Positions 14,421 through 26,717 of a DNA stretch of 26,717 nucleotides are shown here, piece by piece. The DNA lies in contig JACCYR010000126.1 in NCBI GenBank assembly GCA_013696385.1, positions 1 through 26,717 of the forward strand, given 5' to 3'. Both the position numbers and the translations under genes were made by a program. The notes beneath the pieces are model-generated. The model was not told the origin of the DNA. It saw only the letters and a list, made by a program, of their open reading frames with translations, and searched no databases. The DNA comes from Acidobacteriota bacterium. Its GTDB lineage: Bacteria > Acidobacteriota > Blastocatellia > Pyrinomonadales > Pyrinomonadaceae. The stretch's first letter is position 1. Every line of letters begins with the position of its first letter.

Positions 14421-15260
14421 TTAATCTGTTTGGTTATATGACAGATAAGCCAAATTCTTCTTAGTTAGCGAATAACATTCACAAGCCGATTGTTCTAATT
14501 TTTGTCGGTTAAGGATAAAAATTCGCCCGCGGATGTAATCAATAATTCCATTGTTCCGTAAATCCTGAGCAATGAGGGTTAAAGTCGGGCGATGAACTCC
14601 TAGAAAATAGGCGATTTGCTCTTGGGTTAAAATCAACCTGCTTTTTCTGTTGCGGTCGTCGAGCATTAACAGCCAGCTGCAAAAGCGTTCTTCTATTCGG
14701 TGATGGATATTACAGATGGCTCTTTGCGAAATATGGGCGACGTATAAATTTATATAGTCAAGCAATACCGCTTGCAGAAAACCACCGCGACCAAATTCAG
14801 GCTTAAAATTTTTAGCGTTAATCCGCAATGCGATGCCGGCTATCAAAGTTTGCGTCCAAAAAGTCTTTGGTTGAAAACTCAAAATTGTCGATAAACCGGC
14901 TATCCCTTCGTAGCCAATCATTGCTGTTTCGACAGTTCTTCCATCGGCTAAAATATTTAACTGAGAAAAGACGGCAGTTTCGGGAAAATACAAAAACTCG
15001 CTCGTCCCGTCCGGCTGATAAATATCTTCGCCGGAGTTGAAGGAAACCATTTGTAGATGCGGCAGAAGCCGCGCAAAATCAATACTAGGTAAGGCTAAAA
15101 GCAGAGTATTATTTGTCAGTCGTCCGATTGGAAAAGTTTCTCTGGAAACTTGATTCCAATGGCTCGCAAAGCCTTTACCGACAAAAGGCTGACTGACTTT
15201 TAACATTAAAGGCGCATTTCTTTTGATATATCCATTTTTAGTCTTGTAATTATTTATCAT
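14421..15260 (-). CDS. Crp/Fnr family transcriptional regulator (ACECY-tail subfamily)
   Basis: N.LLLALP..DF.RL.PHL, YFPE.AV.S, DG.TVE.A.IG.EG cNMP-fold; H..EERFCSWLL; HTH LTQEQIAYFLGVHRPTLT; C-terminal SACECY; GAGGA SD. Confidence 0.92.
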   Translation of the reverse strand: MINNYKTKNGYIKRNAPLMLKVSQPFVGKGFASHWNQVSRETFPIGRLTNNTLLLALPSIDFARLLPHLQMVSFNSGEDIYQPDGTSEFLYFPETAVFSQLNILADGRTVETAMIGYEGIAGLSTILSFQPKTFWTQTLIAGIALRINAKNFKPEFGRGGFLQAVLLDYINLYVAHISQRAICNIHHRIEERFCSWLLMLDDRNRKSRLILTQEQIAYFLGVHRPTLTLIAQDLRNNGIIDYIRGRIFILNRQKLEQSACECYSLTKKNLAYLSYNQTD

Positions 15261-15279
15261 CAGTTCCTCTTGTGTAGCG

Positions 15280-15312
15280 TTTGGAGTTCAAATTCTAAGT
15301 TTGAACTCCAAA
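15280..15312. repeat. REP-like palindrome, family A copy 1
   Basis: TTTGGAGTTCAAA-TTCTAAG-TTTGAACTCCAAA 13-bp perfect stem; related copy at 19535-19570. Confidence 0.7.
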
Positions 15313-15325
15313 TGCCTGCCCATAT

Positions 15326-15667
15326 TTAATAAACCTTCCTAATGTCGAGGATTATTAATTTCTCGCTACCGTCAAATTCTCGTTCGCTAATCTGTGTCAG
15401 CATAACTTTTACTTCCAACGGGCGTTCGTTAGATTGACAAGTAAAAGTAAATTTTTCCGCCGAATCCGAGCCTTTGGCAAAATAGCGGAAGCGGCGACGA
15501 AGCTCTTCGCCATTTCCAAACGGCGCGATTTCATCAAAAAAATTAAGCCCGATTAAATCCGGCGGCAAATTTACCGAAGAGTTGTTCGCGTCGATTTTGG
15601 AATACTTCACCGTTCCCATTAAATCGAGTTCAAACAACCCGAACACATTCGCTGAAGTATCTTTCAT
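15326..15667 (-). CDS. stand-alone PAS protein, photoactive-yellow-protein-like, lacking the chromophore Cys
   Basis: FGLFELDLMG...P..LIGLNFFDEIAPF...E....F...F..T......P..VKV aligns without gaps to remembered PYP F28-V107; AAGGAG SD; ATGA overlap with the receiver gene. Confidence 0.75.
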   Translation of the reverse strand: MKDTSANVFGLFELDLMGTVKYSKIDANNSSVNLPPDLIGLNFFDEIAPFGNGEELRRRFRYFAKGSDSAEKFTFTCQSNERPLEVKVMLTQISEREFDGSEKLIILDIRKVY

Positions 15668-16170
15668 AAAACTCCTTTAACAGACGTTTCGTGCGGCTTG
15701 TATTTTTTCCTCAGATATTTTTTAAGCCGTATTTCCAATTGACCGAAATCAATCGGCTTAATCATAAAATCATTGGCACCGGCGGCGAGGGCGGAAGCGT
15801 GAACTGACGGTTCGGAATAGCCGGTAATAAAAATAATCACTGGATCACCGGGTTCGGACAGTTGACGAATCCGCCTGGTGGTGGTGAGCGCGTCAATTTT
15901 TTGGAGTCTATCGCTTATTAATATCAAATCGGGACGATGAATTTCAGCCATTTGAATGGCATCCTCGTCATCCGATGCTTCAATAATGCGATAATTCCAA
16001 AGTTTCAATAAATATTTCATCATTAAGCGCGTATCTTCGTCGTTTTCGACAATCAGGATACGCGGGAAAAAATTTATCGTTCGGGCGAAAAGCGAATTAT
16101 CGTTTGTCACTGCATATACCTCGCTGAAAATATGGCTAGGTGAGGATTTGGAGATGTTTGTAAAATTCAT
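15664..16170 (-). CDS. single-domain atypical (pseudo) response regulator receiver
   Basis: ILIVEND...PDLILISD...IIFITG...GANDFMIKP CheY-like fold; S86 at the phosphoacceptor position; GAGAGG SD. Confidence 0.88.
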   Translation of the reverse strand: MNFTNISKSSPSHIFSEVYAVTNDNSLFARTINFFPRILIVENDEDTRLMMKYLLKLWNYRIIEASDDEDAIQMAEIHRPDLILISDRLQKIDALTTTRRIRQLSEPGDPVIIFITGYSEPSVHASALAAGANDFMIKPIDFGQLEIRLKKYLRKKYKPHETSVKGVL

Positions 16171-16244
16171 AAACTTTTACCTCTCACGCTTGTCAGAACC
16201 GCTAATGGAATTGGGACGGATTAAAATAAGTTTTAGAAATTATT

Positions 16245-16294
16245 AAAAAATAAAAAAATTAGAAGGTGAATTTCTGCAAAGAAACTCACCTTCT
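16245..16294 (-). terminator. intrinsic terminator ~75 nt upstream of the receiver gene start
   Basis: Minus strand AGAAGGTGAGTTTCT-TTGC-AGAAATTCACCTTCT (15 bp, one G-U that pairs only on the minus strand), then AATTTTTTTATTTTTT. Confidence 0.8.
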
Positions 16295-16394
16295 CCCCCC
16301 TTGTTCGTGCCGCTGTAGGTTTAACCAAACACGGCGGCAGCTTTCATGAGTTGCTGAAAAAACTTTCCTGTCCGGAAAGTGAAATTCACAACTC
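16245..16394 (-). ncRNA. candidate structured leader/attenuator (or sRNA) with three hairpins
   Basis: Hairpins at 16348-16394, 16308-16339 and 16261-16294 in an otherwise AT-rich intergenic region; no Rfam family recognised. Confidence 0.5.
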
Positions 16395-16444
16395 CAGTTT
16401 TTTGCATTAAATTGATTATCTGCTAGAAAATAATTCATGAACAT

Positions 16445-16487
16445 TAGGAAGATAGGTAAATCAGACAGGGAAAATCCCTACCTGATT
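16445..16487. promoter_or_regulatory. candidate NarL/RcsB-family operator
   Basis: Dyad AATCAG-AC-AGGGA-AAA-TCCCT-AC-CTGATT (16459-16487) plus TAGG half-sites at 16445 and 16453. Confidence 0.35.
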
Positions 16488-16704: not shown

Positions 16705-18567
16705 ATGAGTGTTCTTAATTCAAACCACGAATTTGACCAGCACGACCTTTTTCACGTTATTGCGGACGAAACCAATCGTCTGCCGCGTTCTGTTCTTAGG
16801 CGGACGGCTTTTGAGCTGCTCGACGGCAAATGGCGGTTTGCCCTCGACGCCGATGACCGCGGAATCAGCGAACAGTGGTTTATTCAACACGATTTTGCAG
16901 AAACCGCAATGTTTCCCGGTTCAATCGAATCGCATCTTGTCGCTGCTAAAGATTCCAAAGCAGAATCGCCTCTATACACTGAAAGCGATGAAGTAGTCGC
17001 TTGGTATGAGCGCGATTTTAGCGTTCCTGAAGAGTGGAATCGGTCAAATAAAATAACGCAGCTAACATTTGGCGCGTGCGGTTACGAAACGCACGTCTGG
17101 CTCAACGGTGTTCTGCTCAAAACAATCGAAGGCGAAGAAGCGCATCTCGGCGAATACAGTTCGTTTTCATATGAATTGCCTGCCGATTTATTAAAGCCGG
17201 TCAATCGTTTGACGGTTCGCGTTGCCGATACAATAGATGCCGACATCCCGCGCGGCAAACAGGCTTCGCGCGTTTATAAACAAGGCGGCATTTGGTATCA
17301 GACGGTTTCGGGCGCAGTGCGGAGTGTTTGGATTGAACCGGTCGGACGCAATCGTCTGCGTTCGCGGCTTGGAGTTATCAGCAGTTTGCGCGACCATCTA
17401 GTCGAATTCGATTTTACGACCCGCACTCACGAAGCCAGTAAATATCTTCTGCGGCTGACCGTTACGCCGCACGGAAAAACCGAAACGGGCGAGCAAACCA
17501 CTCCGGTTACGGCGCAGTTTCATTTGACTTTGGAAACGGGCGAATACGTCCAGCGTGTTCCGCTTTTGCTGCCGAACGCTAAATTCTGGTCGCCCGACGC
17601 GCCGCATCTCTATCATTTGTGGGCTGAACTGGTCGCACCCGACGGCATTGTAACGGGCATCGAAACTCATTTCGGCTTACGCAAAATCAGCGCGCACGGA
17701 CAGCGCATTTACTTAAATAATGAAGCGATTTATCTGGATGGTATTCTGTATCAGCCAGGCATTTCGACGTTTGAGGAAATACGGCGGCATTTCCATGCCA
17801 TCAAACGACTCGGCTGCAATCTGGCGCGTGTTCACATTGCCGGAATCGACCCGCGCATTTATGATTTAGCCGATGAAATCGGGCTGATGTTGTGGGTTGA
17901 AATTCCTTCGCCGCATAGTTCAAACCAAATGAGCCGTGATAATCACTGGGCTGAATTGCAAAGAATGCTGGTTTTTATCGCTTCGCATCCGTCAATCGTG
18001 CTGCTTAGTTTATACAACGAAGATTGGGGCACGGAAGACATTTCAACCAACGTCGAAACACGAAAATATATTTCCAATACTTTCGATTATCTGCGGCTTT
18101 ACTATCCGCAATTGCTGGTCGTGGATAATGACGGCTGGAATCATGTTTCCCGCAACGGCAGACTTAGCTCGCATCTTTTGACGGCGCACGTATATACGCC
18201 ATCGCCGTCGGCTTGGGTTTCGACTCTCGACCGTCTGGTTGCCGGAGAAACACACGGCATAACGGCGCAGCCTTTGATTGTCGGTGACGAGTATTTTTAT
18301 CGCGGACAAACGCCGCTCGTCATCAGCGAATGGGGCGGTTTCGGTTTTACAAATTACGGCGGACCCGATGAAGTCGAAGGCAAATGCCGTCTGATTCAAC
18401 TATTCAAAGACGAGATGCGGCAACGCCCAATCGCCGGCGACATTTACACGCAGGCAACCAGCATCGAAGATGAAGTGAATGGAATTATTGACCCGACAAG
18501 CGGCGAACTGCTTGTTCCCGCAGGACTTCTCGGCTCATATTCCTACATTGAAATTAAGAAAGAATAA
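16705..18567 (+). CDS. glycoside hydrolase family 2 (beta-galactosidase/galactofuranosidase-like), no signal peptide
   Basis: LDGKWRF..D, WYERDF, L.FGA..Y...VWLNG, WSPDAPHLY, FGLRKI, GQRIYLNNE; putative catalytic Glu in YNEDWG and ISEWGG. Confidence 0.88.
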   Translation: MSVLNSNHEFDQHDLFHVIADETNRLPRSVLRRTAFELLDGKWRFALDADDRGISEQWFIQHDFAETAMFPGSIESHLVAAKDSKAESPLYTESDEVVAWYERDFSVPEEWNRSNKITQLTFGACGYETHVWLNGVLLKTIEGEEAHLGEYSSFSYELPADLLKPVNRLTVRVADTIDADIPRGKQASRVYKQGGIWYQTVSGAVRSVWIEPVGRNRLRSRLGVISSLRDHLVEFDFTTRTHEASKYLLRLTVTPHGKTETGEQTTPVTAQFHLTLETGEYVQRVPLLLPNAKFWSPDAPHLYHLWAELVAPDGIVTGIETHFGLRKISAHGQRIYLNNEAIYLDGILYQPGISTFEEIRRHFHAIKRLGCNLARVHIAGIDPRIYDLADEIGLMLWVEIPSPHSSNQMSRDNHWAELQRMLVFIASHPSIVLLSLYNEDWGTEDISTNVETRKYISNTFDYLRLYYPQLLVVDNDGWNHVSRNGRLSSHLLTAHVYTPSPSAWVSTLDRLVAGETHGITAQPLIVGDEYFYRGQTPLVISEWGGFGFTNYGGPDEVEGKCRLIQLFKDEMRQRPIAGDIYTQATSIEDEVNGIIDPTSGELLVPAGLLGSYSYIEIKKE

Positions 18568-18581
18568 GGTAAAATGAGAGT

Positions 18582-19520
18582 TTAAGTAAAATATGCGACC
18601 AATGCAGAAGCCCGCACGAAGTAAAGGCGATAAGATTTATACGCCCTTACGCGCGTGCGGGCTTCTGCATTTGGAATTCTCTTCAGTTTCCAATATTCGA
18701 GATGTTCGATAGAATCGCCGGGCGCGAGTTTTTTGAGCGGCGCGAGCGATTCGATTTCGATAAAATTGCCTGCCGTATAAAGTTCATTATTCGAGTTCAT
18801 ATCGGGATAAACCGCCGTTTCGATAAAATTAAATTGCTTGGTAAATTCCAAATCGCCAACCAGATATTTTGCCCGACCCTGTTTATTTAAAACGCCGACT
18901 TTTTGCGGTTCGGGTTTGTTTTCGTCAACTTTCAGGCGAATAAAATCCTTATCAAACTTCCAGCGCGAATCAGAAAAATCCGTGTATGACCAGACCGCCA
19001 AATTTCGCACCGGAAGCAGAGTTTCTCCGCCGTAAGGTGCAAACGGCTCGTTCGGAATCAACGCTTCGCCGCCGCCGCGCATAATCGTCAATGCCCACGC
19101 CGCGAGTTCGATTTCCTTGTCGCCGCAATTGGTGATTTTGTGATTTATCGAAACGCCGCTTCCCTTTTCGTCCAGAGTTACGATGATTTCCTTTTGCGTT
19201 TTTGTGATAATTTCAACCGGCTGAACAAGGCGAATCGAATTTCTACGCTCGTCAAATTCATATTCACACGGCGAATTATCGGGCGCGTAACTAATCGGCA
19301 TATTTTCTGGCGCAATCCACAATCGATGCCCGCCGTAAGGCTTAAATTCACCGAGCGCGGTTTCAACTTTCGCATCGAGATGCAAACCTAAAACATTCTC
19401 GCCGCCCGAAAACGCATAATGCAAAATTCGCGGTCCGACATCGGTTGCAGCAATAATTTCAATTTCGCCGTTAGTCAGGCGAAGGCAGTTCGGTAAGTTT
19501 ATGTAAGAGATTTTTTCCAT
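18582..19520 (-). CDS. uncharacterised protein, probable galactose-mutarotase-like beta-sandwich (DUF4380-like)
   Basis: GPRILHY, GGHRLWIAPE...Y.PDN.P, WALT.MRGGG, FIEIESLAP; last gene of the galT-galK run. Start set at ATG 19520 (MEKISY). Confidence 0.7.
   Translation of the reverse strand: MEKISYINLPNCLRLTNGEIEIIAATDVGPRILHYAFSGGENVLGLHLDAKVETALGEFKPYGGHRLWIAPENMPISYAPDNSPCEYEFDERRNSIRLVQPVEIITKTQKEIIVTLDEKGSGVSINHKITNCGDKEIELAAWALTIMRGGGEALIPNEPFAPYGGETLLPVRNLAVWSYTDFSDSRWKFDKDFIRLKVDENKPEPQKVGVLNKQGRAKYLVGDLEFTKQFNFIETAVYPDMNSNNELYTAGNFIEIESLAPLKKLAPGDSIEHLEYWKLKRIPNAEARTRVRAYKSYRLYFVRASALVAYFT
18601..18671. repeat. REPIN-like inverted repeat (family B) inside the 3' end of a CDS
   Basis: 18-bp perfect outer arms AATGCAGAAGCCCGCACG/CGTGCGGGCTTCTGCATT plus inner GTAAAGGCG/CGCCCTTAC; each arm begins GCAG and is itself a short imperfect palindrome. 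Confidence 0.75.
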
Positions 19521-19534
19521 CACAAAAATCAAAG

Positions 19535-19570
19535 TGTTTGGAGTTCCAACTAAAGTTGGAACTCCAAACA
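19535..19570. repeat. REP-like palindrome, family A copy 2
   Basis: TGTTTGGAGTTCCAAC-TAAA-GTTGGAACTCCAAACA perfect 16-bp stem between galK and the next gene. Confidence 0.75.
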
Positions 19571-19574
19571 AAGG

Positions 19575-20738
19575 TTAAAAAATAATTTCGCTCGCGCCGC
19601 CTGCCGGATTTGAAACATAGACATCGGTTGCAATCTGCGTTTGCCGAAAATATTTAATCGAAACTTTTTCGGTAAAATCTTCCAGCTTTTCGCGCCGCAC
19701 GAGATTGACGGTTGAACCGCCGAAACCGCCGCCGGTCATTCTCGCGCCGAGAACGCCCGCACATTCGGAGGCAATTTTCACCAGCAAATCGAGTTCCCGA
19801 CAACTGACTTCGTAGTCATCGCGCAAACTCATGTGCGAAAGCCACATCAACCGTCCGAATTCCTCAAAATCATTTTTTCTTAATGCTTCGGCGGCATCCA
19901 AGGTGCGTTTGTTTTCTGTAACGACGTGGCGGCAACGCTTTCTGATAATTTCCGGCAAATGATTTTTGTATTTTTCAAAATCCGCGACGCTGACATCGCG
20001 CAGGTGAGTAATGCCGGGCAGGAATTTCTGCAAAATCTCAACGCCTTGCTCGCATTCGGCGCGGCGAGTATTGTATTCAGAAGCAGCGAGTTCGTGTTTG
20101 ATGTTTGTGTTGCAAATGGCGATTGCCGCGTCATCGGTCGCAAACGGAACTTGTTCGGCTTGCAACTTGCGGCAATCAATCAAAAGCGCGTGTCCTTTTC
20201 TGCCCAGAGCCGAAACGAATTGGTCCATAATGCCGATTTTCGCGCCGACAAATTCGTGTTCAGCAGCTTGTCCGACAAGCGCAAGTTGAACTTTATCAAT
20301 GCTTTGGTTGGAAATTTCGGTCAATGCCAAACCGACGGAAATTTCCAGCGCGGCGGACGAAGAAAGTCCCGCGCCGGTCGGCACGTCTGAAGAAATCAGC
20401 AAATCCGCGCCGCGCAATTTCACGTTTCGACGTTCCAGAATCCGCGCCACGCCTTCGACAAAATCGAGCCACGAACCGCGAAATTTCTGCTCCGGCGCGT
20501 CTAAATTTATTTCACCTTCTTCGCCTAAATTGACGGAACAAACACGAATTTTCCGGTCTTCACGGACGGCGGCGGCAACAATTGTCGCGTATTCAATTGC
20601 CATCGGAAGAACAAAACCGTCGTTGTAATCGGTGTGTTCGCCAATCAGATTGACTCTGCCCGGAGCGCGGAAAAGTCGCGGCTCGCCTCCGAAACGCGAT
20701 TGATATTCGGTTTGTAAATTCAGGTAATTGATTGCCAT
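19575..20738 (-). CDS. galK: galactokinase
   Basis: RAPGRVNLIGEHTDYNDGFVLP, GHMP motif PTGAGLSSSAA, GIMDQ, GARMTGGGFGG. Confidence 0.98.
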   Translation of the reverse strand: MAINYLNLQTEYQSRFGGEPRLFRAPGRVNLIGEHTDYNDGFVLPMAIEYATIVAAAVREDRKIRVCSVNLGEEGEINLDAPEQKFRGSWLDFVEGVARILERRNVKLRGADLLISSDVPTGAGLSSSAALEISVGLALTEISNQSIDKVQLALVGQAAEHEFVGAKIGIMDQFVSALGRKGHALLIDCRKLQAEQVPFATDDAAIAICNTNIKHELAASEYNTRRAECEQGVEILQKFLPGITHLRDVSVADFEKYKNHLPEIIRKRCRHVVTENKRTLDAAEALRKNDFEEFGRLMWLSHMSLRDDYEVSCRELDLLVKIASECAGVLGARMTGGGFGGSTVNLVRREKLEDFTEKVSIKYFRQTQIATDVYVSNPAGGASEIIF

Positions 20739-20797
20739 TTTAATTTTAACCGCTTAAGAACGCAAGAATTTTCAACAGTATGAATTACGCACAGCCT

Positions 20798-21787
20798 TTA
20801 ATCATTTTTCCAAATTACCGGCTCAACGAGTCGGCGCAGTTCAAACGCTTTTTCTTCGGCGAGCGTGTCGTTGATAAACATTCCCGCGCCGGTTTCGCTG
20901 CCCGCCAAAAATTTCAGCTTTGTCGCGGAGCGCATCGGCGGATAAAATTCGATATGAAAATGATAATAATTATAATCGCCGCCGGACGGTTTTTGGTGCA
21001 AAACCATCATATACGGAAACGACACATCGAAAAGTTTGTCAAAAGCGACTAAAACCTGTTTCAAAATCGAAGCTAAATCAATCTGTTCAGCCGTCGAAAA
21101 CTGCGTCAAATCCGGCAAATGCCGTTTGGCGGCAATGTGCAGTTCATACGGATAACGCGCAAAAAACGGAATATAAGCCGCAAACGAATCATTTTCCGCG
21201 ACGATGCGCCGTCCGTCTCGGCGTTCTTCGGCAACAATATCACACAGCAGACAGCGATTATGTTTTTCCAGATAAAGCCGCGATTGTTCCAACTCTTTCT
21301 CAATCCGCGGCGGCACAAACGGATAAGCGTAAATCTGCCCGTGCGGGTGATGCAGAGTTACGCCGATTGCCTCGCCTTTATTTTCAAAAATAAAAACGTA
21401 TCTGACAAAATCGAGTTTTGAAAGTTCCCGAAAACGGTCTGTCCAAACCTGCACGAGTTTATAAATTTGCTCGACAGGTTCGGCGGCGAGCGTCGAATTA
21501 TGATTCGGCGTGTAGACGACGACTTCGCATTCGCCGAAACTTTTTTCAACCGGATAGAGTTCGGTTGATTCAATTGCCGGTTCGGGCGGATTCGGGCTGA
21601 GACTCGGAAATTTATTCTCGAAAACAACGATGTCATAGACGGGTTCGGGAACTTCGGTCGGAAAACCGCCGGGCGCGGTCGGACACAGCGGACAAAAATC
21701 CTTCGGCGGCAAAAACGTGCGGTCTTGGCGAGCGGTGGCGGTTGCCAGCCATTCGCCCAACAGCGGATTCCATCTTAATTCAGACAT
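20798..21787 (-). CDS. galT: galactose-1-phosphate uridylyltransferase
   Basis: ELRWNPLLGEW, CPLCP, VFENKFPSL, FENKG..IGVTLHHPHGQ (HPH nucleophile), HFHIEFYPP. Confidence 0.97.
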   Translation of the reverse strand: MSELRWNPLLGEWLATATARQDRTFLPPKDFCPLCPTAPGGFPTEVPEPVYDIVVFENKFPSLSPNPPEPAIESTELYPVEKSFGECEVVVYTPNHNSTLAAEPVEQIYKLVQVWTDRFRELSKLDFVRYVFIFENKGEAIGVTLHHPHGQIYAYPFVPPRIEKELEQSRLYLEKHNRCLLCDIVAEERRDGRRIVAENDSFAAYIPFFARYPYELHIAAKRHLPDLTQFSTAEQIDLASILKQVLVAFDKLFDVSFPYMMVLHQKPSGGDYNYYHFHIEFYPPMRSATKLKFLAGSETGAGMFINDTLAEEKAFELRRLVEPVIWKND

Positions 21788-22007: not shown

Positions 22008-22655
22008 TTAATTATCCTCGAGCCAGCCTTGCAAAATAGCAAAGCGCACGATGTCTATGCGGCTGCCGATGTCGAGTTTCCGCATCGCGTTGGCTTTGTG
22101 GGCTTCGACGGTTTTGACGCTGATTTCAAGATTATAGGCAATTTCCTTGTTGCTGTAGCCCCAGGCAATCTGGCGCAGAACTTCCGATTCACGTTCGCTG
22201 AGAGTTAATTTTCCGGCAAGATTAATTTGCCGCGGGGCATAACCGCCGATGACTCTGCCCGTAACTGTCGGGTCGAGATAGTTGCCGCCTTTGGCAATGG
22301 CGCGGATGGCGCGGAGCATTTCGCTCGAAGGACTTTGCTTTAAAACATAACCGCTGGCTCCGGCGCGGAGCAGTTCTTGAAGATAACCGTCATCGGTGTG
22401 GCGTGTCAAGGTTAAAATTTTCATCTGCGGGCAAAGTTGTTTGAGTTTTCGGGTCGCCTTCAGACCGTTTAATTCCGGCATCGTAACATCCATCACGACG
22501 ACATCGGGCTGGAGTTCCTGCGCCATTTTAACCGCGGTGCGACCGTCGCCACATTCGCCGCACACTTCCATATCGGCTTGCGCGTTGATAATCAACCGCA
22601 AACCTTCGCGCACGGTTTCGTGGTCTTCGGCGATAAAAATGCGTAGGTTGTTCAT
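22008..22655 (-). CDS. NarL/LuxR-family DNA-binding response regulator
   Basis: IFIAEDH, PDVVVMD (Asp intact), LTLT, GYVLK; HTH LSERESEVL..IAWG.SNKEIA..L.IS.KTVE.HK.N.M.KL. ATG at 22655. Confidence 0.95.
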   Translation of the reverse strand: MNNLRIFIAEDHETVREGLRLIINAQADMEVCGECGDGRTAVKMAQELQPDVVVMDVTMPELNGLKATRKLKQLCPQMKILTLTRHTDDGYLQELLRAGASGYVLKQSPSSEMLRAIRAIAKGGNYLDPTVTGRVIGGYAPRQINLAGKLTLSERESEVLRQIAWGYSNKEIAYNLEISVKTVEAHKANAMRKLDIGSRIDIVRFAILQGWLEDN

Positions 22656-22681
22656 AAGTTTCAAGTTTCAAGTCTCAAGTC
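22656..22681. repeat. heptamer tandem repeat (AAGTYTC)x3.7
   Basis: AAGTTTC AAGTTTC AAGTCTC AAGTC directly upstream of the regulator ATG. Confidence 0.7.
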
Positions 22682-22706
22682 GGAAAACGCGCTTGACTTT
22701 GGACTT

Positions 22707-25700
22707 TTACCCGCCCGCAGTCTGCGCTCCCAGCGGGACGCGGACGAAAATCGTTGTTCCCTGATTGATTACCGATTCGATTTCGAGCGTTCCGCCGATG
22801 AGCGCGGCACGTTCGCGCATACCGATTAAGCCCAAGCCTTTTCCGTTCTTCAAAGTTGTCGCTTTTTTAATATCAAAGCCTTGCCCGTCGTCTTCGATAA
22901 TCAGCATAATTTCTTTGCCGCGACATTCGAGCAGCACGGACGCTTGGTTGGCGCGGGCGTATTTGCCGGTGTTGTTCAGGGCTTCCTGCACGATGCGGTA
23001 AAAATTCAGCTCGATTGCCATCTCCAATGCAATCGTTTCCAAACCGCTCGTATGAAATTCCGCCGGAATGTCGAAATGAATTGACCATTCCTTAATATAA
23101 TCATTTAACGCTGTCGTCAATCCCAAATCTTTGAGCGCGGCGGGGCGCAATTCCCAGGCAAGAAAATCGAGGTCGGAATCAACCTGTTCGGCAATTTTTT
23201 GGGTTCGCGTAATCTTTTCGCATAAATCCGCGTTATCCGCGCAATCTTTTTGAAGCATTTCAAGATTCAGGCGGAGCGCGGTCAATTGTTGTCCGAGATG
23301 GTCGTGCAACTCACGCGAAATGCGCTGGCGTTCGTCTTCCTGCGACGTAACGAGTTTTTTTAGAAGCGTCAAGCGTTGCTGCTCGATTTGTTGGCGCTCG
23401 GCGATTTCCGCTTGTAAGGTCGAATTGGCTGAAGCCAACTCGACCGTCCGCAATTGAACCTTTATTTCCAAACTTTCGTGCGCGAGGCGTAATGCTGCTT
23501 CGGCTTGGGTTTTTTCGGTCATATCGCGGGCGATTTTGACAAAGCCGAGCAGATTGCCGCCTTCATCCGCTAAAGCCCGCATTACGCCGGATGCGTAAAA
23601 GCGCGATTCGTCTTTGCGTATGTGAAAGCGTTCGTCTTCGGCAAATCCTTTTTCGCGGGCGGTCTTTGTTTCCTTTTCGGGAACATTGACGGCGCGGTCT
23701 TCGGGCATGAATAAAATTTCGTAATGTTCGCCGATGATTTCACTTTCAGTCCAGCCGAAAATACGCTCCGCGCCGGTGTTCCAAAATTCAATCAAACAAT
23801 TTTCAGCCGAGATGCCGATAATGGCGTAATCCTTCGCGCTTTCGATTAGAAGGCGCAGGCGTTCTTCGCTCTGACGCAGTTTTTCTTCCGATTGTTTTCT
23901 GATAGTTACGTCGCGCGTCGAACCGGCAACGAATTCAACCGTGCCGCCTTTGGCAAAAACGGGCGTGAGAATATATTCGTAAAAACCGTTTTCGCCAGCC
24001 AGATTTGTGAATGACGTTTCGTCTTTGACCATTTCTCCGGTGTCGAAAACGTGCTGAATTTGTTTTTGGAGAAGCACGGCTAAATCCGGTGGATAATTCA
24101 AATCGTGAAAGTTTTTCCCGACAATTTCTTCCGCCGTAATGCCTAATAAATCGAACAACGGCTGATTGGCAAAAACGAAACGCCCATCGCGGTCGAACAA
24201 GTAAGCAAAATCGCTGATTGCCGAAAGCGTCGTATCGAAAATGCGCGTTTGCCGTTCCAGCCGTTCGGCGATTTCCTCTAATTCCTTTCCGTGCCGCTTG
24301 CGCGTCGTAATATCCAAAAAGGTAGCGATAACGCCGTCAATTCGGTTGTCAGCCGTGCGATACGGCAAGATATTCGTCAGATAAACGCGCCCTTCGCTCG
24401 TCGTAACTTCGCGCTCGATTGATTGCAGACTGGCAAGCACCTTTTCGGCTTCGGCGTGTAAATCCGAATCCGAGAGTTTGGTCGTAATATCGGAAATCGG
24501 TCTGCCGATGTCCGCCGGACGCAGATTGTAAATGTCGAGGAGGCGCGGCGTAAATAATTTTATGCGAAGCGAACGGTCGAGAAACAGAGTGCCGATGTCG
24601 GTCGAAGCTATCAGATTGAGAAAATCATCGTTCGATTGGGAAAGTTCTTCGATTTTTATTTTCAATTCCTGATTGACCGTGTGGAGTTCTTCGTTGATTG
24701 ACTGAAATTCCTCTTTGCCGGTTTCGAGTTCTTCAGTCGCCGAACGCAGTTCTTCGTTCATCGCCTGCAATTCTTCGTTCGACGCTTTGAGTTCTTCGGT
24801 CTGCGTTTCGTATTGGTCAACCGTCGTGTGCAATTGCTCGTGCAGCTGCACGAGTTCGGCTTCGAGTTGTCGCGCCGGTTCGTCTAAACTAATCAGCCGC
24901 ACCGCCGTTCTCGCGTCGTTCGCCTCATTTGCTTCTTCAAACAACACGAGCAGAAAACCGCGCGGAACATCCGCGCCTTCGCGCAAAACCGGACGGACGA
25001 CGAGATTGATTTTTTGGATTTTTTCATCACCGATTTGAATTTCAAGCCCGCGTGTTTCGACACTTGCGGCGGTTTGCACCGCCTGATAAAGCGCGGTACG
25101 AAGTGCCAGCCGCAAATCGGGGTGAATAATTTTTAACAGATTATAAGACGGCTCGCCACCCGCCACCGCCAGATATTTTCCGGCGCGCGGTGTCAGATGC
25201 AGAATATCGTAGTTTTCGCTGACGATGATTGACGGCGGCGCGTATTTTTCAAGCAGTCGCTGGTGCAAATCGGTATACGCCATTCGTTCGAGCGCGTTCG
25301 CTTCTTCAATCCGCCGCATTTCAGCCGGGCGCGTCGGCTGTAAATCGGTGCGCGGCAGCATCAAATCGGAAATCGGCAGAGAGACACGGGCATTGACGTT
25401 GCGGCTTTGATAAATGTGATGTTCTTTGTCAGAGACGGCGAATAACTCAACGGCGACATCGGCGGATTCACTTGTTCCCAAAAACAAAAATCCGCCCGCA
25501 TTTAATGAAAAATGGAAAATTTCCATCGCGCGCTTTTGCGCCGCACGGTTAAGATAAATAAGTAGATTGCGGCACGAAACAAGGTCGAGATGCGAAAACG
25601 GCGGGTCTTTGATGACATTGTGAATGGCAAATAAAACACGCTCGCGCAAATCGCGCCGAACACGATAACCGTTCGGTTCGGCGACAAAAAAACGGCGCAG

Positions 25701-26717
25701 GCGTTCCGGGGATACGTCGGCGGTGTCGGTCGCCGTGTAAAAACCTTCGCGGGCAATGGCAATCGCGGATTCGTCAATATCGGTGGCGAAAATTTGTATG
25801 GCGGGCGCGTCTCTCAAATTCTCGGCGTATTCGACGGTGAGCATCGCCAGAGAATACGCTTCTTCGCCCGTCGCGCAGCCCGCAACCCAAACGCGCACAG
25901 TGTCGTTCGCCGTTTTATTCTCGAAAAGTCTGGCGATAATCCGTCGTTCCAGCTGGTTGAAAGTTTCCGAATCGCGGAAAAAATTCGTGACCGAAATCAG
26001 CAAATCACGCAGCAGTGCCGACGCTTCCGACGGCTGTTCGTGCAGCAGGCGCGAATAATCCTGTATACTTTTGAGTTCGTGAACATTGACGCGGCGTTCG
26101 ATGCGCCGGAGAACGGTGGCGCGTTTGTAATTTGAAAAATCGTGTCCGGTGCGGATTCTGAGTTGTGTAAAAATATCATGCAGGGCGCGTTCGTCGGTTT
26201 CTGGTCTTTCCCGCAATTCGGGCGAAATCGTAACTTTGCCGAGATTTTCCCGATAACCGATAATTCTCGCGGGCATCTCCGCCGCGGGCAAAACGAAATC
26301 AACCAATCCGGTTGCTAAAGAATTGCGCGGCATATCAGTATATTCGGCTTCGTTCGGGTCTTGGACAAAAACCACGCCGCCTTTTTCCTTAACGCGCTTC
26401 ATTCCCATCGAACCATCCGCGCCCGTGCCTGACAAAATAACGGCGGCGGCGCGTGATTCGTGCGATTCGGCGAGTGTGCGAAAGAAAATATCAATCGGCG
26501 CACGACGCTCTTCAATCCGCGTTACGTCCGACAAAGCCAGATGCCCGTCGTTCATTTTCAGACTTTTATTCGGCGGAATAACATAGACATGATTCGGCAC
26601 GACTTTAACCTTCTCTTCCTGCACCTGTGTAACCGGAATTGACGCGCTCTGCTGGAGAATTTCCGCCAAAAGACTGTCGTGTTCGGGCGACAGATGCAGA
26701 ATAACGACATATGCCAT
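22707..26717 (-). CDS. CheB-CheR-PAS-PAS-PAS-HisKA_3 histidine kinase (5' end beyond window)
   Basis: CheB (VVILH, PIDIFFRTLA, LSGTGADG), CheR (VWVAGCATGEEAYS, ATDID, CRNLLIY), EEL heptad coiled coil, PAS domains, H-box RELHDHLGQ, HATPase QEALNN/DDGQGF/GLGLIGMRERA. Confidence 0.95.
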   Translation of the reverse strand: MAYVVILHLSPEHDSLLAEILQQSASIPVTQVQEEKVKVVPNHVYVIPPNKSLKMNDGHLALSDVTRIEERRAPIDIFFRTLAESHESRAAAVILSGTGADGSMGMKRVKEKGGVVFVQDPNEAEYTDMPRNSLATGLVDFVLPAAEMPARIIGYRENLGKVTISPELRERPETDERALHDIFTQLRIRTGHDFSNYKRATVLRRIERRVNVHELKSIQDYSRLLHEQPSEASALLRDLLISVTNFFRDSETFNQLERRIIARLFENKTANDTVRVWVAGCATGEEAYSLAMLTVEYAENLRDAPAIQIFATDIDESAIAIAREGFYTATDTADVSPERLRRFFVAEPNGYRVRRDLRERVLFAIHNVIKDPPFSHLDLVSCRNLLIYLNRAAQKRAMEIFHFSLNAGGFLFLGTSESADVAVELFAVSDKEHHIYQSRNVNARVSLPISDLMLPRTDLQPTRPAEMRRIEEANALERMAYTDLHQRLLEKYAPPSIIVSENYDILHLTPRAGKYLAVAGGEPSYNLLKIIHPDLRLALRTALYQAVQTAASVETRGLEIQIGDEKIQKINLVVRPVLREGADVPRGFLLVLFEEANEANDARTAVRLISLDEPARQLEAELVQLHEQLHTTVDQYETQTEELKASNEELQAMNEELRSATEELETGKEEFQSINEELHTVNQELKIKIEELSQSNDDFLNLIASTDIGTLFLDRSLRIKLFTPRLLDIYNLRPADIGRPISDITTKLSDSDLHAEAEKVLASLQSIEREVTTSEGRVYLTNILPYRTADNRIDGVIATFLDITTRKRHGKELEEIAERLERQTRIFDTTLSAISDFAYLFDRDGRFVFANQPLFDLLGITAEEIVGKNFHDLNYPPDLAVLLQKQIQHVFDTGEMVKDETSFTNLAGENGFYEYILTPVFAKGGTVEFVAGSTRDVTIRKQSEEKLRQSEERLRLLIESAKDYAIIGISAENCLIEFWNTGAERIFGWTESEIIGEHYEILFMPEDRAVNVPEKETKTAREKGFAEDERFHIRKDESRFYASGVMRALADEGGNLLGFVKIARDMTEKTQAEAALRLAHESLEIKVQLRTVELASANSTLQAEIAERQQIEQQRLTLLKKLVTSQEDERQRISRELHDHLGQQLTALRLNLEMLQKDCADNADLCEKITRTQKIAEQVDSDLDFLAWELRPAALKDLGLTTALNDYIKEWSIHFDIPAEFHTSGLETIALEMAIELNFYRIVQEALNNTGKYARANQASVLLECRGKEIMLIIEDDGQGFDIKKATTLKNGKGLGLIGMRERAALIGGTLEIESVINQGTTIFVRVPLGAQTAGG

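What the first reader, a model, noticed from the sequence alone, without database searches (positions are those of the whole stretch)
16245..16394. Structured leader with a terminator and a built-in antiterminator (riboswitch/attenuator-like)
Seen on the minus strand: hairpin 1 GAGTTG-TGAA..ACTTTCC-GGACA-GGAAAGT..TTCA-G-CAACTC, hairpin 2 TGCCGC..GCGGCA, then a 15-bp terminator plus U-tract, with no gene upstream to terminate. The 5' arm of hairpin 1 contains GAATTTCACTTTC (16387-16375), an 11/13 copy of the terminator 3' arm GAAATTCACCTTC, which can pair 12 of 13 positions with the terminator 5' arm. The two folds are mutually exclusive, the classic attenuator logic. No known aptamer was recognised, so it may be a new riboswitch, a protein-gated attenuator or an sRNA.
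Basis: partly seen in the sequence, partly recalled or inferred. Interest (0 to 1): 0.7.

Follow-up and report, generated by a model that had tools for sequence, protein, structure and literature searches.

The report
Conserved acidobacterial small RNA before signalling operon

Summary
The two hairpins, the 15-bp terminator and the U tract are present on the minus strand at 16394-16245. They fold far better than shuffles (z -4.8). The same three helices recur, with covariation, in related genomes (90.7% paired, 27 of 33 pairs with double changes).

No Rfam family matches. The element occurs only in Pyrinomonadaceae (Acidobacteriota): all 30 hits among about 185,000 species, and 26 of 401 family genomes.

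It has its own promoter behind a palindromic operator, TAGGGAnnnnTCCCTA. In most relatives it sits between a NarL/GerE response-regulator gene and a receiver, PYP-like, Crp-like operon.

- It pairs no better than shuffled columns (62.3% against 62.9%).
- Forcing it costs about 23 kcal/mol.
- It is absent in relatives.

Hairpin sequences differ between two subtypes. Only an unpaired GAACAAGGGGG polypurine motif next to the terminator is invariant, which argues against a small-molecule aptamer.

Best reading (about 0.5): a small RNA driven by the NarL-type regulator, released at the terminator, with read-through feeding the operon. Main rival (about 0.3): a leader attenuator gated by a protein or the ribosome. 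This is a new member of a known kind, of moderate interest.

The parts
16466..16480 (-). Palindromic operator TAGGGATTTTCCCTG, centred about 65 nt upstream of the predicted transcription start. Presumed binding site of the NarL/GerE-type regulator.
   Evidence: Conserved as TAGGGAnnnnCCYT in every orthologous locus. Operator plus box occurs once per carrier genome in 15 of 34 genus genomes (three carriers have a second hit, one of them probably chance). The reversed-pattern control gives 1 hit.
16438..16451 (-). Conserved CTTCCTAATGTTCA box, including the -35-like hexamer TGTTCA (16443-16438).
   Evidence: TTCC lies 15-17 nt after the palindrome in all loci. The spacer to the -10 is 17 nt.
16415..16420 (-). 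-10 hexamer GATAAT. Many relatives have TGnGATAnT, an extended -10.
   Evidence: Read from the sequences printed. The promoter assignment is an inference; no transcript data exist.
16396..16408 (-). Predicted 5' end of the RNA, unpaired AAUGCAAAAAACU. AAUGCAAA is conserved in subtype 1.
   Evidence: Alignments A2 and A4. The transcription start is inferred from the -10 position.
16348..16394 (-). Hairpin P1. The outer stem is conserved by covariation; the inner part varies.
   Evidence: fold. Helix 1: 6 of 7 pairs have changes on both sides.
16308..16339 (-). Hairpin P2 (TGCCGC..GCGGCA).
   Evidence: fold. Helix 2: 91.3% paired, 8 of 13 pairs with double changes.
16289..16306 (-). Invariant unpaired motif GAACAAGGGGGG, continuing as a polypurine, Shine-Dalgarno-like tract into the terminator 5' arm.
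   Evidence: G[AG]NCA[AG]GGG is the only sequence block shared by both RNA subtypes. It occurs twice in 7 of 32 RNAs.
16261..16294 (-). Terminator hairpin: 15 bp, loop TTGC.
   Evidence: Helix 3: 94.8% paired, 13 of 13 pairs with double changes.
16245..16260 (-). U tract (AAUUUUUUUAUUUUUU).
   Evidence: A T run of 7 or more is seen in only 4 of 30 relatives and a run of 5 or more in 17 of 30.
16171..16244 (-). Spacer between the terminator and the receiver start codon. No conserved promoter was recognised.
   Evidence: Spacer alignment. No promoter-like site on the minus strand.
14421..16170 (-). Downstream co-oriented operon: receiver-only protein (16170-15664), PYP-like PAS protein (15667-15326), Crp-like regulator (15260-14421).
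   Evidence: Pfam. The same gene order follows the RNA in most of the 30 loci.
22008..26717 (-). Cognate two-component pair, 5.3 kb upstream on the same strand. The kinase is CheB-CheR-PAS-HisKA_3-HATPase (26717-22707, cut by the window end). The response regulator is Response_reg+GerE (22664-22008).
   Evidence: Pfam. The regulator is 68% identical to the NarL-type gene that directly precedes the operator in relatives.

Best explanation
The element is a small RNA gene of about 160 nt (roughly 16408-16250, minus strand). It belongs to an accessory signalling cassette of Pyrinomonadaceae. The cassette runs: hybrid HisKA_3 kinase, NarL/GerE response regulator, operator and promoter, RNA, receiver, PYP-like PAS protein, Crp-like regulator.

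Inferred mechanism:
1. The phosphorylated NarL-type regulator binds the TAGGGAnnnnTCCCTA palindrome at about -65.
2. This activates a weak -35 / good -10 promoter.
3. Most transcripts stop at the strong intrinsic terminator. That releases an RNA with two structural hairpins, P1 and P2, and an exposed polypurine motif (GAACAAGGGGG...). The motif is the functional site for pairing with pyrimidine-rich RNA, or for a protein such as Hfq.
4. The fraction that reads through becomes the mRNA of the downstream receiver, PYP-like, Crp-like operon.

What is shown:
- the structure and its covariation;
- the conserved operator and promoter;
- the synteny and the taxonomic range;
- the absence of a conserved antiterminator.

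What is inferred:
- that the RNA is made as a discrete species;
- which regulator binds the operator;
- that the RNA acts in trans;
- that read-through occurs.
For: - Three helices are supported by covariation: 90.7% paired, 27 of 33 pairs with double changes, 0 of 500 shuffles as good, and slid controls at 38-53%.
- There is a dedicated conserved promoter with a palindromic operator. It is found essentially only here in each carrier genome.
- A NarL/GerE regulator gene ends 6-308 nt upstream of the operator in about 25 of 30 loci. Its ortholog and a HisKA_3 kinase lie in the window.
- The conservation pattern is that of an sRNA. Hairpin sequences diverge completely between two subtypes. Only the unpaired motif and the terminator are kept. 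The motif is duplicated in 7 of 32 RNAs.
- One intact copy (L053, G002:C110) is followed by a convergent gene, so it has nothing downstream to regulate in cis.
- Extra copies sit beside unrelated genes: L125 and L091 with the same operator, and L059 without the palindrome.
- Hfq is encoded in 32 of 34 genomes of the genus.
- The window's terminator is canonical: 15 bp followed by runs of 7 and 6 U.
- No conserved alternative pairing competes with the terminator.
Against: - There are no transcript data.
- In almost all loci the RNA is co-oriented with the operon and only 60-290 nt from it. No conserved promoter was recognised in the spacer. That fits a cis-acting leader equally well.
- Long U tails, which E. 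coli-type Hfq binding needs, are found in only 4 of 30 relatives.
- A crude target scan in the 71%-complete genome found no enrichment of complementarity at translation starts.
- Hfq was not found in this incomplete MAG itself.
- The convergent-gene case rests on one 71%-complete MAG. That MAG also showed no NarL ortholog or operon.
Confidence: 0.5

Rival explanations
1. It is a cis-acting leader attenuator gated by a trans-acting factor. All operon transcription starts at the operator-controlled promoter, and the terminator stops it by default. A protein, Hfq or an initiating 30S subunit binds the Shine-Dalgarno-like polypurine tract (GAACAAGGGGG...). That tract abuts and runs into the terminator 5' arm, so binding blocks hairpin formation and allows read-through into the receiver, PYP-like, Crp-like genes.
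For: - The arrangement is constant: co-oriented with the operon and close to it.
- Subtype-1 spacers have no conserved promoter.
- The invariant motif sits exactly at the 5' edge of the terminator.
- Many relatives have interrupted U tracts, which suggests leaky termination.
- When the receiver or PYP-like gene is missing, the RNA stays directly upstream of the next gene of the operon (L088, L074, L081).
- Extra copies precede other co-oriented genes (L125, L091, L059).
- Subtype 2 has a further covarying hairpin in the spacer, so that region is probably transcribed and structured.
Against: - No antiterminator structure is conserved. Most known protein-gated attenuators have one.
- No RNA-binding protein is encoded in the cassette.
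- CsrA is present in only 4 of 34 genomes, and no ANTAR protein was found (though the control was silent).
- A start codon in the 5' arm is missing in the window's closest relatives (L084, L085, L094), and no leader peptide is conserved.
- One intact copy faces a convergent gene.
Confidence: 0.3
2. It is a metabolite- or second-messenger-sensing riboswitch. P1, P2 and the linker form the aptamer and the terminator is the expression platform.
For: - The layout is structured hairpins, then a terminator, then signalling genes.
- The structure is conserved with covariation.
- The RNA is not in Rfam, so it could be a new class.
Against: - The proposed switch helix is at chance level and 22.7 kcal/mol uphill.
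- P1 and P2 sequences and loops are not conserved even within one bacterial family: two subtypes share no hairpin sequence. Riboswitch cores are normally near-invariant.
- The only invariant block is a short linear purine run.
- The range is narrow: 9 of 60 genera of one family.
- There is no multi-stem junction or conserved internal loop.
Confidence: 0.07
3. It has no dedicated regulatory function. The hairpins and terminator are simply the 3' end or insulator of the kinase and NarL-type regulator transcription unit. In this MAG the unit has been separated from them by a later insertion, and the conserved upstream sequence is an autoregulatory operator.
For: - In relatives the NarL-type gene ends 6-308 nt upstream of the operator. 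In several there is no room for a separate terminator.
- In the window a gal/GH2 block lies between the regulator and the RNA.
Against: - A plain terminator does not need two further covarying hairpins, an invariant 10-nt motif, or a conserved -10 / extended -10 just upstream.
- Copies exist with no NarL gene nearby (L053, L091, L125).
- The element is kept intact in the window after being separated from narL.
Confidence: 0.08

Closest known systems
GacA-dependent RsmY/RsmZ (Csr/Rsm-type) small RNAs of gamma-proteobacteria
   Same: Both involve a NarL/FixJ-family response regulator and a palindromic upstream activating sequence about 65-70 nt before the start. The RNA has hairpins, exposed purine-rich GG(A) motifs and an intrinsic terminator. 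A few genomes carry paralogous copies with the same operator.
   Different: - CsrA/RsmA is encoded in only 4 of 34 genomes of the genus. It is missing from most complete carriers.
- There are only one or two motif copies, not many.
- The motif is CAAGGGGG rather than ANGGA in hairpin loops.
- There is no Rfam match.
- Here the RNA is always directly upstream of a co-oriented operon.
Regulator-adjacent Hfq-dependent sRNAs whose terminators are read through (for example SgrR/SgrS-setA; read-through of sRNA terminators is described in PMC4509938, seen in title and abstract only)
   Same: The sRNA gene lies next to the gene of its transcriptional activator. It has an intrinsic terminator with a U tail, a conserved unpaired functional motif, and a downstream gene that read-through can reach. 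Hfq is present in the lineage.
   Different: There is no sequence or structural homology. The phylum is different (Acidobacteriota). The conserved motif is purine-rich and Shine-Dalgarno-like rather than an anti-SD seed. Long U tails occur in only a minority of relatives. No targets have been identified.
Terminator/antiterminator leaders: transcriptional riboswitches such as c-di-GMP-I, and protein-gated attenuators such as ANTAR, BglG/RAT and PyrR
   Same: Hairpins are followed by an intrinsic terminator in the leader of a co-oriented operon of signalling genes.
   Different: - There is no conserved antiterminator.
- There is no conserved aptamer core.
- There are no Rfam hits.
- No ANTAR protein was detected (control silent).
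- The cassette encodes no RNA-binding protein.
STAB-SD type 5' stabilisers (Shine-Dalgarno-like sequence in a leader that binds 30S without initiating translation; recalled from established knowledge of Bacillus thuringiensis cryIIIA, not tested here)
   Same: A conserved strong SD-like purine run (AAGGGGG; AAGGAGG in subtype 2) has no conserved ORF behind it and lies in an untranslated leader.
   Different: Here the run lies directly before a terminator hairpin and about 110 nt from the predicted 5' end. Nothing is known about mRNA decay in this lineage.

Membership tests
Transcriptional riboswitch | Mutually exclusive terminator and antiterminator pairings conserved among homologues | tested here: not met
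The best alternative partner lies at different positions in relatives and is not significant. The truncated-alignment consensus leaves the 5' arm unpaired, and forcing the helix costs 22.7 kcal/mol.
Transcriptional riboswitch | Aptamer core with near-invariant nucleotides in junctions and loops | tested here: not met
   Two subtypes within one bacterial family share no hairpin sequence. Only the linear G[AG]NCA[AG]GGG block is invariant.
Transcriptional riboswitch | Match to a described class | tested here: not met
   No Rfam 15 hit at gathering score in the window. Nothing relevant up to E = 10 in the intergenic region. No hit in 18 relatives' loci.
Transcriptional riboswitch | Direct ligand binding | not testable with these tools
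   This needs in-line probing or binding assays.
Intrinsic (Rho-independent) terminator | G+C-containing stem-loop directly followed by a U run | tested here: met
   15-bp stem at 16294-16261, loop of 4, then AAUUUUUUUAUUUUUU. The hairpin is conserved, with 13 of 13 pairs covarying.
Hfq-type trans-acting sRNA | Own promoter and discrete transcript | tested here: inconclusive
   A conserved operator, a -35-like box and a -10 / extended -10 lie at fixed spacing. No expression data are available.
Hfq-type trans-acting sRNA | Terminator with a U tail of 7 or more | tested here: inconclusive
   Met in the window (7 U then 6 U). A T run of 7 or more is found in only 4 of 30 relatives, and a run of 5 or more in 17 of 30.
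Hfq-type trans-acting sRNA | Hfq encoded by the organism | tested here: inconclusive
   PF17209 is over the cut-off in 32 of 34 genus genomes. It was not found in the window's own 71%-complete MAG.
Hfq-type trans-acting sRNA | Conserved unpaired seed with conserved complementary targets | tested here: inconclusive
   Conserved unpaired motifs exist. The target scan in the own genome showed no enrichment at translation starts. No conserved site was found within the cassette.
Csr/Rsm protein-sequestering sRNA | CsrA/RsmA partner protein present | tested here: not met
   PF02599 is present in 4 of 34 genus genomes. It is absent from seven carriers that are at least 92% complete (G022, G008, G030, G025, G021, G009, G015). 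The control genomes gave hits as expected.
Csr/Rsm protein-sequestering sRNA | Many GGA motifs in loops or single strands | tested here: not met
   There are one or two CA[AG]GGG motifs per RNA. GGA in the P2 loop occurs only in some members.
ANTAR-regulated leader | ANTAR-domain protein and paired hexaloop hairpins overlapping the terminator | tested here: inconclusive
   PF03861 was found in 0 of 34 genomes, but it also rang in none of the control genomes, so sensitivity is unproven. The P1 loop has 5 nt, and no dual-hexaloop motif is visible in the sequence.
Leader-peptide (ribosome-mediated) attenuator | Conserved short ORF whose translation controls the fold | tested here: not met
   The 52-aa ORF at 16444-16286 starts upstream of the -10. 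I did not see a counterpart of it in the relatives' sequences. A GUG or AUG in the terminator 5' arm occurs in about two thirds of members but not in the closest relatives L084, L085 and L094. The resulting peptides are not conserved.

The most novel reading that the evidence does not exclude
The RNA could be a new kind of regulatory leader or decoy built around a Shine-Dalgarno mimic.
- The invariant polypurine tract (AAGGGGG..AAGGAGG..GGUGA) resembles an extended SD.
- The pyrimidine-rich 3' arm of the terminator resembles the 3' end of 16S rRNA.

Binding of a 30S subunit, or of an unknown purine-tract-binding protein, to the nascent RNA would then decide between two outcomes. One is termination, which releases an sRNA. 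The other is read-through into a cassette of degenerate sensor proteins (pseudo-receiver, Cys-less PYP-like PAS, Crp-like). That would tie the output of a two-component system to the cell's translational state.
Probability: 0.12. Interest if true: 0.75.

Novelty: new member of a known kind. Interest (0 to 1): 0.45.

Why it matters
My two literature searches found no described regulatory RNA for this lineage. This element is a well-supported candidate RNA family with four useful properties:
- a clear promoter;
- a likely cognate regulator;
- covarying structure;
- a sharply defined invariant motif.

It sits at the centre of a mobile-looking signalling cassette, present in 14 of 33 other species of the genus and patchily across nine genera. 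That makes it a tractable entry point for studying RNA-based regulation and two-component outputs in abundant but poorly studied soil bacteria.

It is also a caution. A convincing-looking terminator/antiterminator pair in a single sequence can arise from composition alone, here a U-rich strand facing a purine-rich strand.

Tried and rejected
Rejected. It is not conserved and is at chance level.
- **Known RNA families.** No Rfam hit at gathering score or at E up to 10, in the window or in relatives.
- **Csr/Rsm-like sponge.** The NarL-type regulator, the palindrome and the GGA-like motifs suggested it. Rejected because CsrA is missing from most carriers.
- **ANTAR leader.** No ANTAR domain was found, but the control was silent, so this is only weak evidence.
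- **Leader peptide or small protein.**
  - The 52-aa ORF starts before the -10.
  - Start codons in the terminator arm are not kept in the closest relatives.
  - The resulting peptides are not conserved.
- **Crp-type DNA site in the terminator (GTGA..TCAC).** Rejected because the spacing between half-sites varies from 8 to 16 nt between relatives (read).
- **Pairing of the invariant motif with a site in the neighbouring mRNAs.** No site recurs at a consistent position.
- **Genome-wide target scan.** I used crude ORF calls in the 71%-complete MAG. Translation-start regions pair no better than intragenic controls (mean -10.3 against -12.0 kcal/mol). The result is uninformative.
- **MAFFT-only alignment.** The 12 leaders gave a poor consensus structure. 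I replaced it with a covariance-model alignment.
- **Automated stem and U-tract parsing.** Unreliable, because A-tract/U-tract pairs were merged into the stem. I replaced it with simple counts.
- **Literature.** Two full-text searches found nothing on regulatory RNAs of Pyrinomonadaceae or Blastocatellia.

Full report
**Observation**

- P1 is at 16394-16348.
- P2 is at 16339-16308.
- An unpaired GAACAAGGGGGG is at 16306-16295.
- The 15-bp terminator hairpin is at 16294-16261.
- The tail AAUUUUUUUAUUUUUU is at 16260-16245.

The 161-nt strand folds at -55.5 kcal/mol. Shuffles average -35.8, z is -4.8, and 0 of 200 shuffles fold as well.

The surroundings are as follows.
- Upstream lies a divergent GH2 gene (16705-18567, +).
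- Downstream, co-oriented, lie a receiver-only protein (16170-15664), a 113-aa protein (15667-15326), a Crp-like regulator (15260-14421), MetK and AhcY.

No Rfam 15 family matches the window at gathering score. Nothing meaningful appears in the intergenic region up to E = 10.

**Relatives**

The window lies in a 71%-complete MAG. Orthologues of the receiver in 11 other species of the genus all carry the same upstream architecture:
1. a TAGGGAnnnnTCCCTA palindrome;
2. a CTTCC(Y)RAT box 15-17 nt later;
3. a -10 (GATAAT, CATACT, or TGnGATAnT);
4. two hairpins;
5. G[AG]NCA[AG]GGG;
6. a hairpin with a U-rich tail;
7. 60-290 nt of spacer before the gene.

I built a covariance model from five sequences. 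It found one strong copy per genome (E of 1e-8 or better) in 10 of 34 genus genomes; weaker matches brought the tally to 15.

On a 14-sequence model-guided alignment that excluded the genomes flagged unpublished, the three helices are 90.7% paired. Twenty-seven of 33 pairs show changes on both sides, and 0 of 500 column shuffles do as well. Sliding the 3' partners drops pairing to 38-53%. This alignment was fitted to the model, so the figures lean towards it. The terminator helix also covaried in the plain MAFFT alignment.

**Range**

I scanned one genome for each of about 185,000 species with an exact pattern joining operator, box and motif. It gave 30 hits. Every hit is a Pyrinomonadaceae, Blastocatellia or Acidobacteriota MAG.

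Within the family, a version of the pattern with a looser box hits 26 of 401 genomes in 9 of 60 genera. That includes 14 of 33 other species in the window's genus. The reversed-pattern control gives 0 hits.

The operator-plus-box part alone occurs once in each carrier genome. Three genomes have a second hit, one of them probably chance. The control gives 1 hit in 34 genomes.

**Context**

About 22 of 30 loci share this gene order:
1. NarL/GerE-type response regulator, whose stop codon lies 6-308 nt before the palindrome;
2. the RNA;
3. receiver;
4. PYP-like protein;
5. Crp-like regulator, often followed by a second Crp-like gene.

In the window the orthologous regulator is at 22664-22008(-). 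It is 68% identical to the relatives' gene and has Response_reg and GerE domains. A CheB-CheR-PAS-HisKA_3-HATPase kinase precedes it. A galT, galK and GH2 block (16705-21787) separates the pair from the RNA.

Variants exist.
- The RNA lies directly before the PYP-like gene in L088.
- The RNA lies directly before the Crp-like gene in L074 and L081.
- One intact copy is followed by a convergent gene (L053).
- Extra copies with the same operator sit beside unrelated genes (L091 = L124, and L125).
- A copy without the palindrome exists (L059).

Two RNA subtypes share no hairpin sequence. Across both, only the purine motif and the terminator are kept. The motif runs on as a polypurine tract (median 9.5 nt, up to 20) into the terminator's 5' arm. 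That arm often reads GG(R)UGAG. The motif occurs twice in 7 of 32 RNAs.

**The proposed switch**

The 11/13 repeat and the 12/13 pairing are real in this one sequence, but four tests go against them.
- The duplex (-13.5 kcal/mol) is matched by 11% of shuffles.
- In 13 relatives the best upstream partner of the terminator 5' arm lies elsewhere. It beats shuffles only weakly in two of them (p 0.017 and 0.057, uncorrected).
- Mapped onto the alignment, the helix is 62.3% paired against 62.9% expected, with no covariation above the controls. The background of about 62% comes from a U-rich strand facing a purine-rich one.
- Forcing it gives -32.8 against -55.5 kcal/mol. A consensus fold of the alignment cut before the 3' arm keeps P1 and P2 and leaves the 5' arm free.

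There is also no conserved aptamer core. Together these make a small-molecule riboswitch unlikely.

**What it most likely is**

The conservation pattern is the usual signature of a regulator-dependent small RNA: a dedicated regulated promoter, a variable body, a short invariant unpaired motif and a terminator. Further support:
- rare paralogous copies carry the same operator;
- one copy has no downstream gene to regulate;
- the activator gene lies next door;
- Hfq is encoded in 32 of 34 genomes of the genus.

A Csr/Rsm-type sponge was attractive but is rejected. CsrA is present in only 4 of 34 genomes.

The constant, close, co-oriented position before the operon points the other way, towards a leader. 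So do the lack of a recognisable promoter in the spacer and the frequently interrupted U tracts. At the least they mean that the operon is probably fed by read-through.

I therefore favour a dual arrangement at about 0.5. The NarL-type regulator drives an RNA that mostly terminates as an sRNA of about 160 nt and partly reads through as the operon mRNA.

The main rival, at about 0.3, is a factor-gated attenuator in which the SD-like purine tract at the foot of the terminator is the binding site. These data cannot separate the two; transcript mapping would.

**Limits**
- No expression data exist.
- Most genomes are MAGs.
- Relatives are not independent samples.
- The promoter, the transcription start and the regulator-operator pairing are inferences from conservation.
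- Genomes G016 and G033 are flagged as unpublished in the genome tool. The observation that the RNA lies directly upstream of a Crp-like gene in L054/L081 rests on G016. One subtype-1 variant (L023/L093) rests on G033. Both were left out of model R1 and alignment A4.
- The ANTAR search had a silent control.
- The target scan used crude ORF calls on an incomplete genome.

Noticed in passing
window 16705-21787: In this MAG a galactose-utilisation block separates the NarL-type regulator (22664-22008) from the operator and RNA. The block holds GH2 on the + strand, and a DUF4380-like gene, galK and galT on the - strand. In relatives the regulator's stop codon lies 6-308 nt from the operator, so this looks like a 5.3-kb insertion into the cassette.
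   Followed up: partly
L078, L095, L071, L080 (spacer between terminator and receiver gene): Subtype-2 RNAs have a further covarying hairpin after the terminator (CTACTCA..TGAGTAG / TTGCTC..GAGCA). Its loop, GACGAAUUAAAUCCCCC, is complementary to the invariant GGGGGA of the motif. In L078 and L095 an AUCACCCUCC, like the 16S 3' end, follows the U tract. This may be a long-range pairing in read-through transcripts.
   Followed up: partly
L125 (G008:C20), L124/L091 (G025:C355), L059 (G002:C78): Second copies of the RNA occur in three genomes, away from the cassette. L125 and L091 have the same operator. L125 precedes a 74-aa ORF. L091 lies 450 nt before ferritin-like-looking secreted proteins. 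L059 lacks the palindrome.
   Followed up: partly
window 15326-15667 (-), protein P0001: The 113-aa protein has no Pfam hit. By eye it resembles photoactive yellow protein (FG.F.LD..G.V.YS ... IG.NFFDE.APF), with Phe where the chromophore Cys would be. It is conserved in most cassettes. The resemblance is recalled from memory and was not tested.
   Followed up: no
window 15664-16170 (-): The receiver reads IVENDED and PDLILISD, so the usual acidic-pocket and phospho-acceptor Asp positions look substituted in this species. Relatives vary at the first of these sites (for example LILVAEEDDD in G017).
   Followed up: no
L020, L021, L024, L025 (between the NarL-type gene and the operator): Long imperfect hairpins built from short simple repeats (for example GGATGAGGGATGAGGGATGAAGG ... 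CCTTCATCCTTCATCCC) follow the regulator gene in several relatives. They may be its own terminators or insulators.
   Followed up: no
window 16362-16380 (-): The inner stem of P1 (ACTTTCC-GGACA-GGAAAGT) is followed by TTTTTT, and the scan flags it as a second terminator-like site. It may be a pause site or an Hfq-type hairpin-plus-U module.
   Followed up: no
terminator 5' arms across L067-L096: About two thirds of the terminator 5' arms contain GG(R)UGAG after the polypurine run. The arm therefore resembles an extended Shine-Dalgarno sequence (AAGGAGGUGA), and the 3' arm resembles the 3' end of 16S rRNA. The closest relatives of the window have GGC(A/G)(A/G)G instead.
   Followed up: partly
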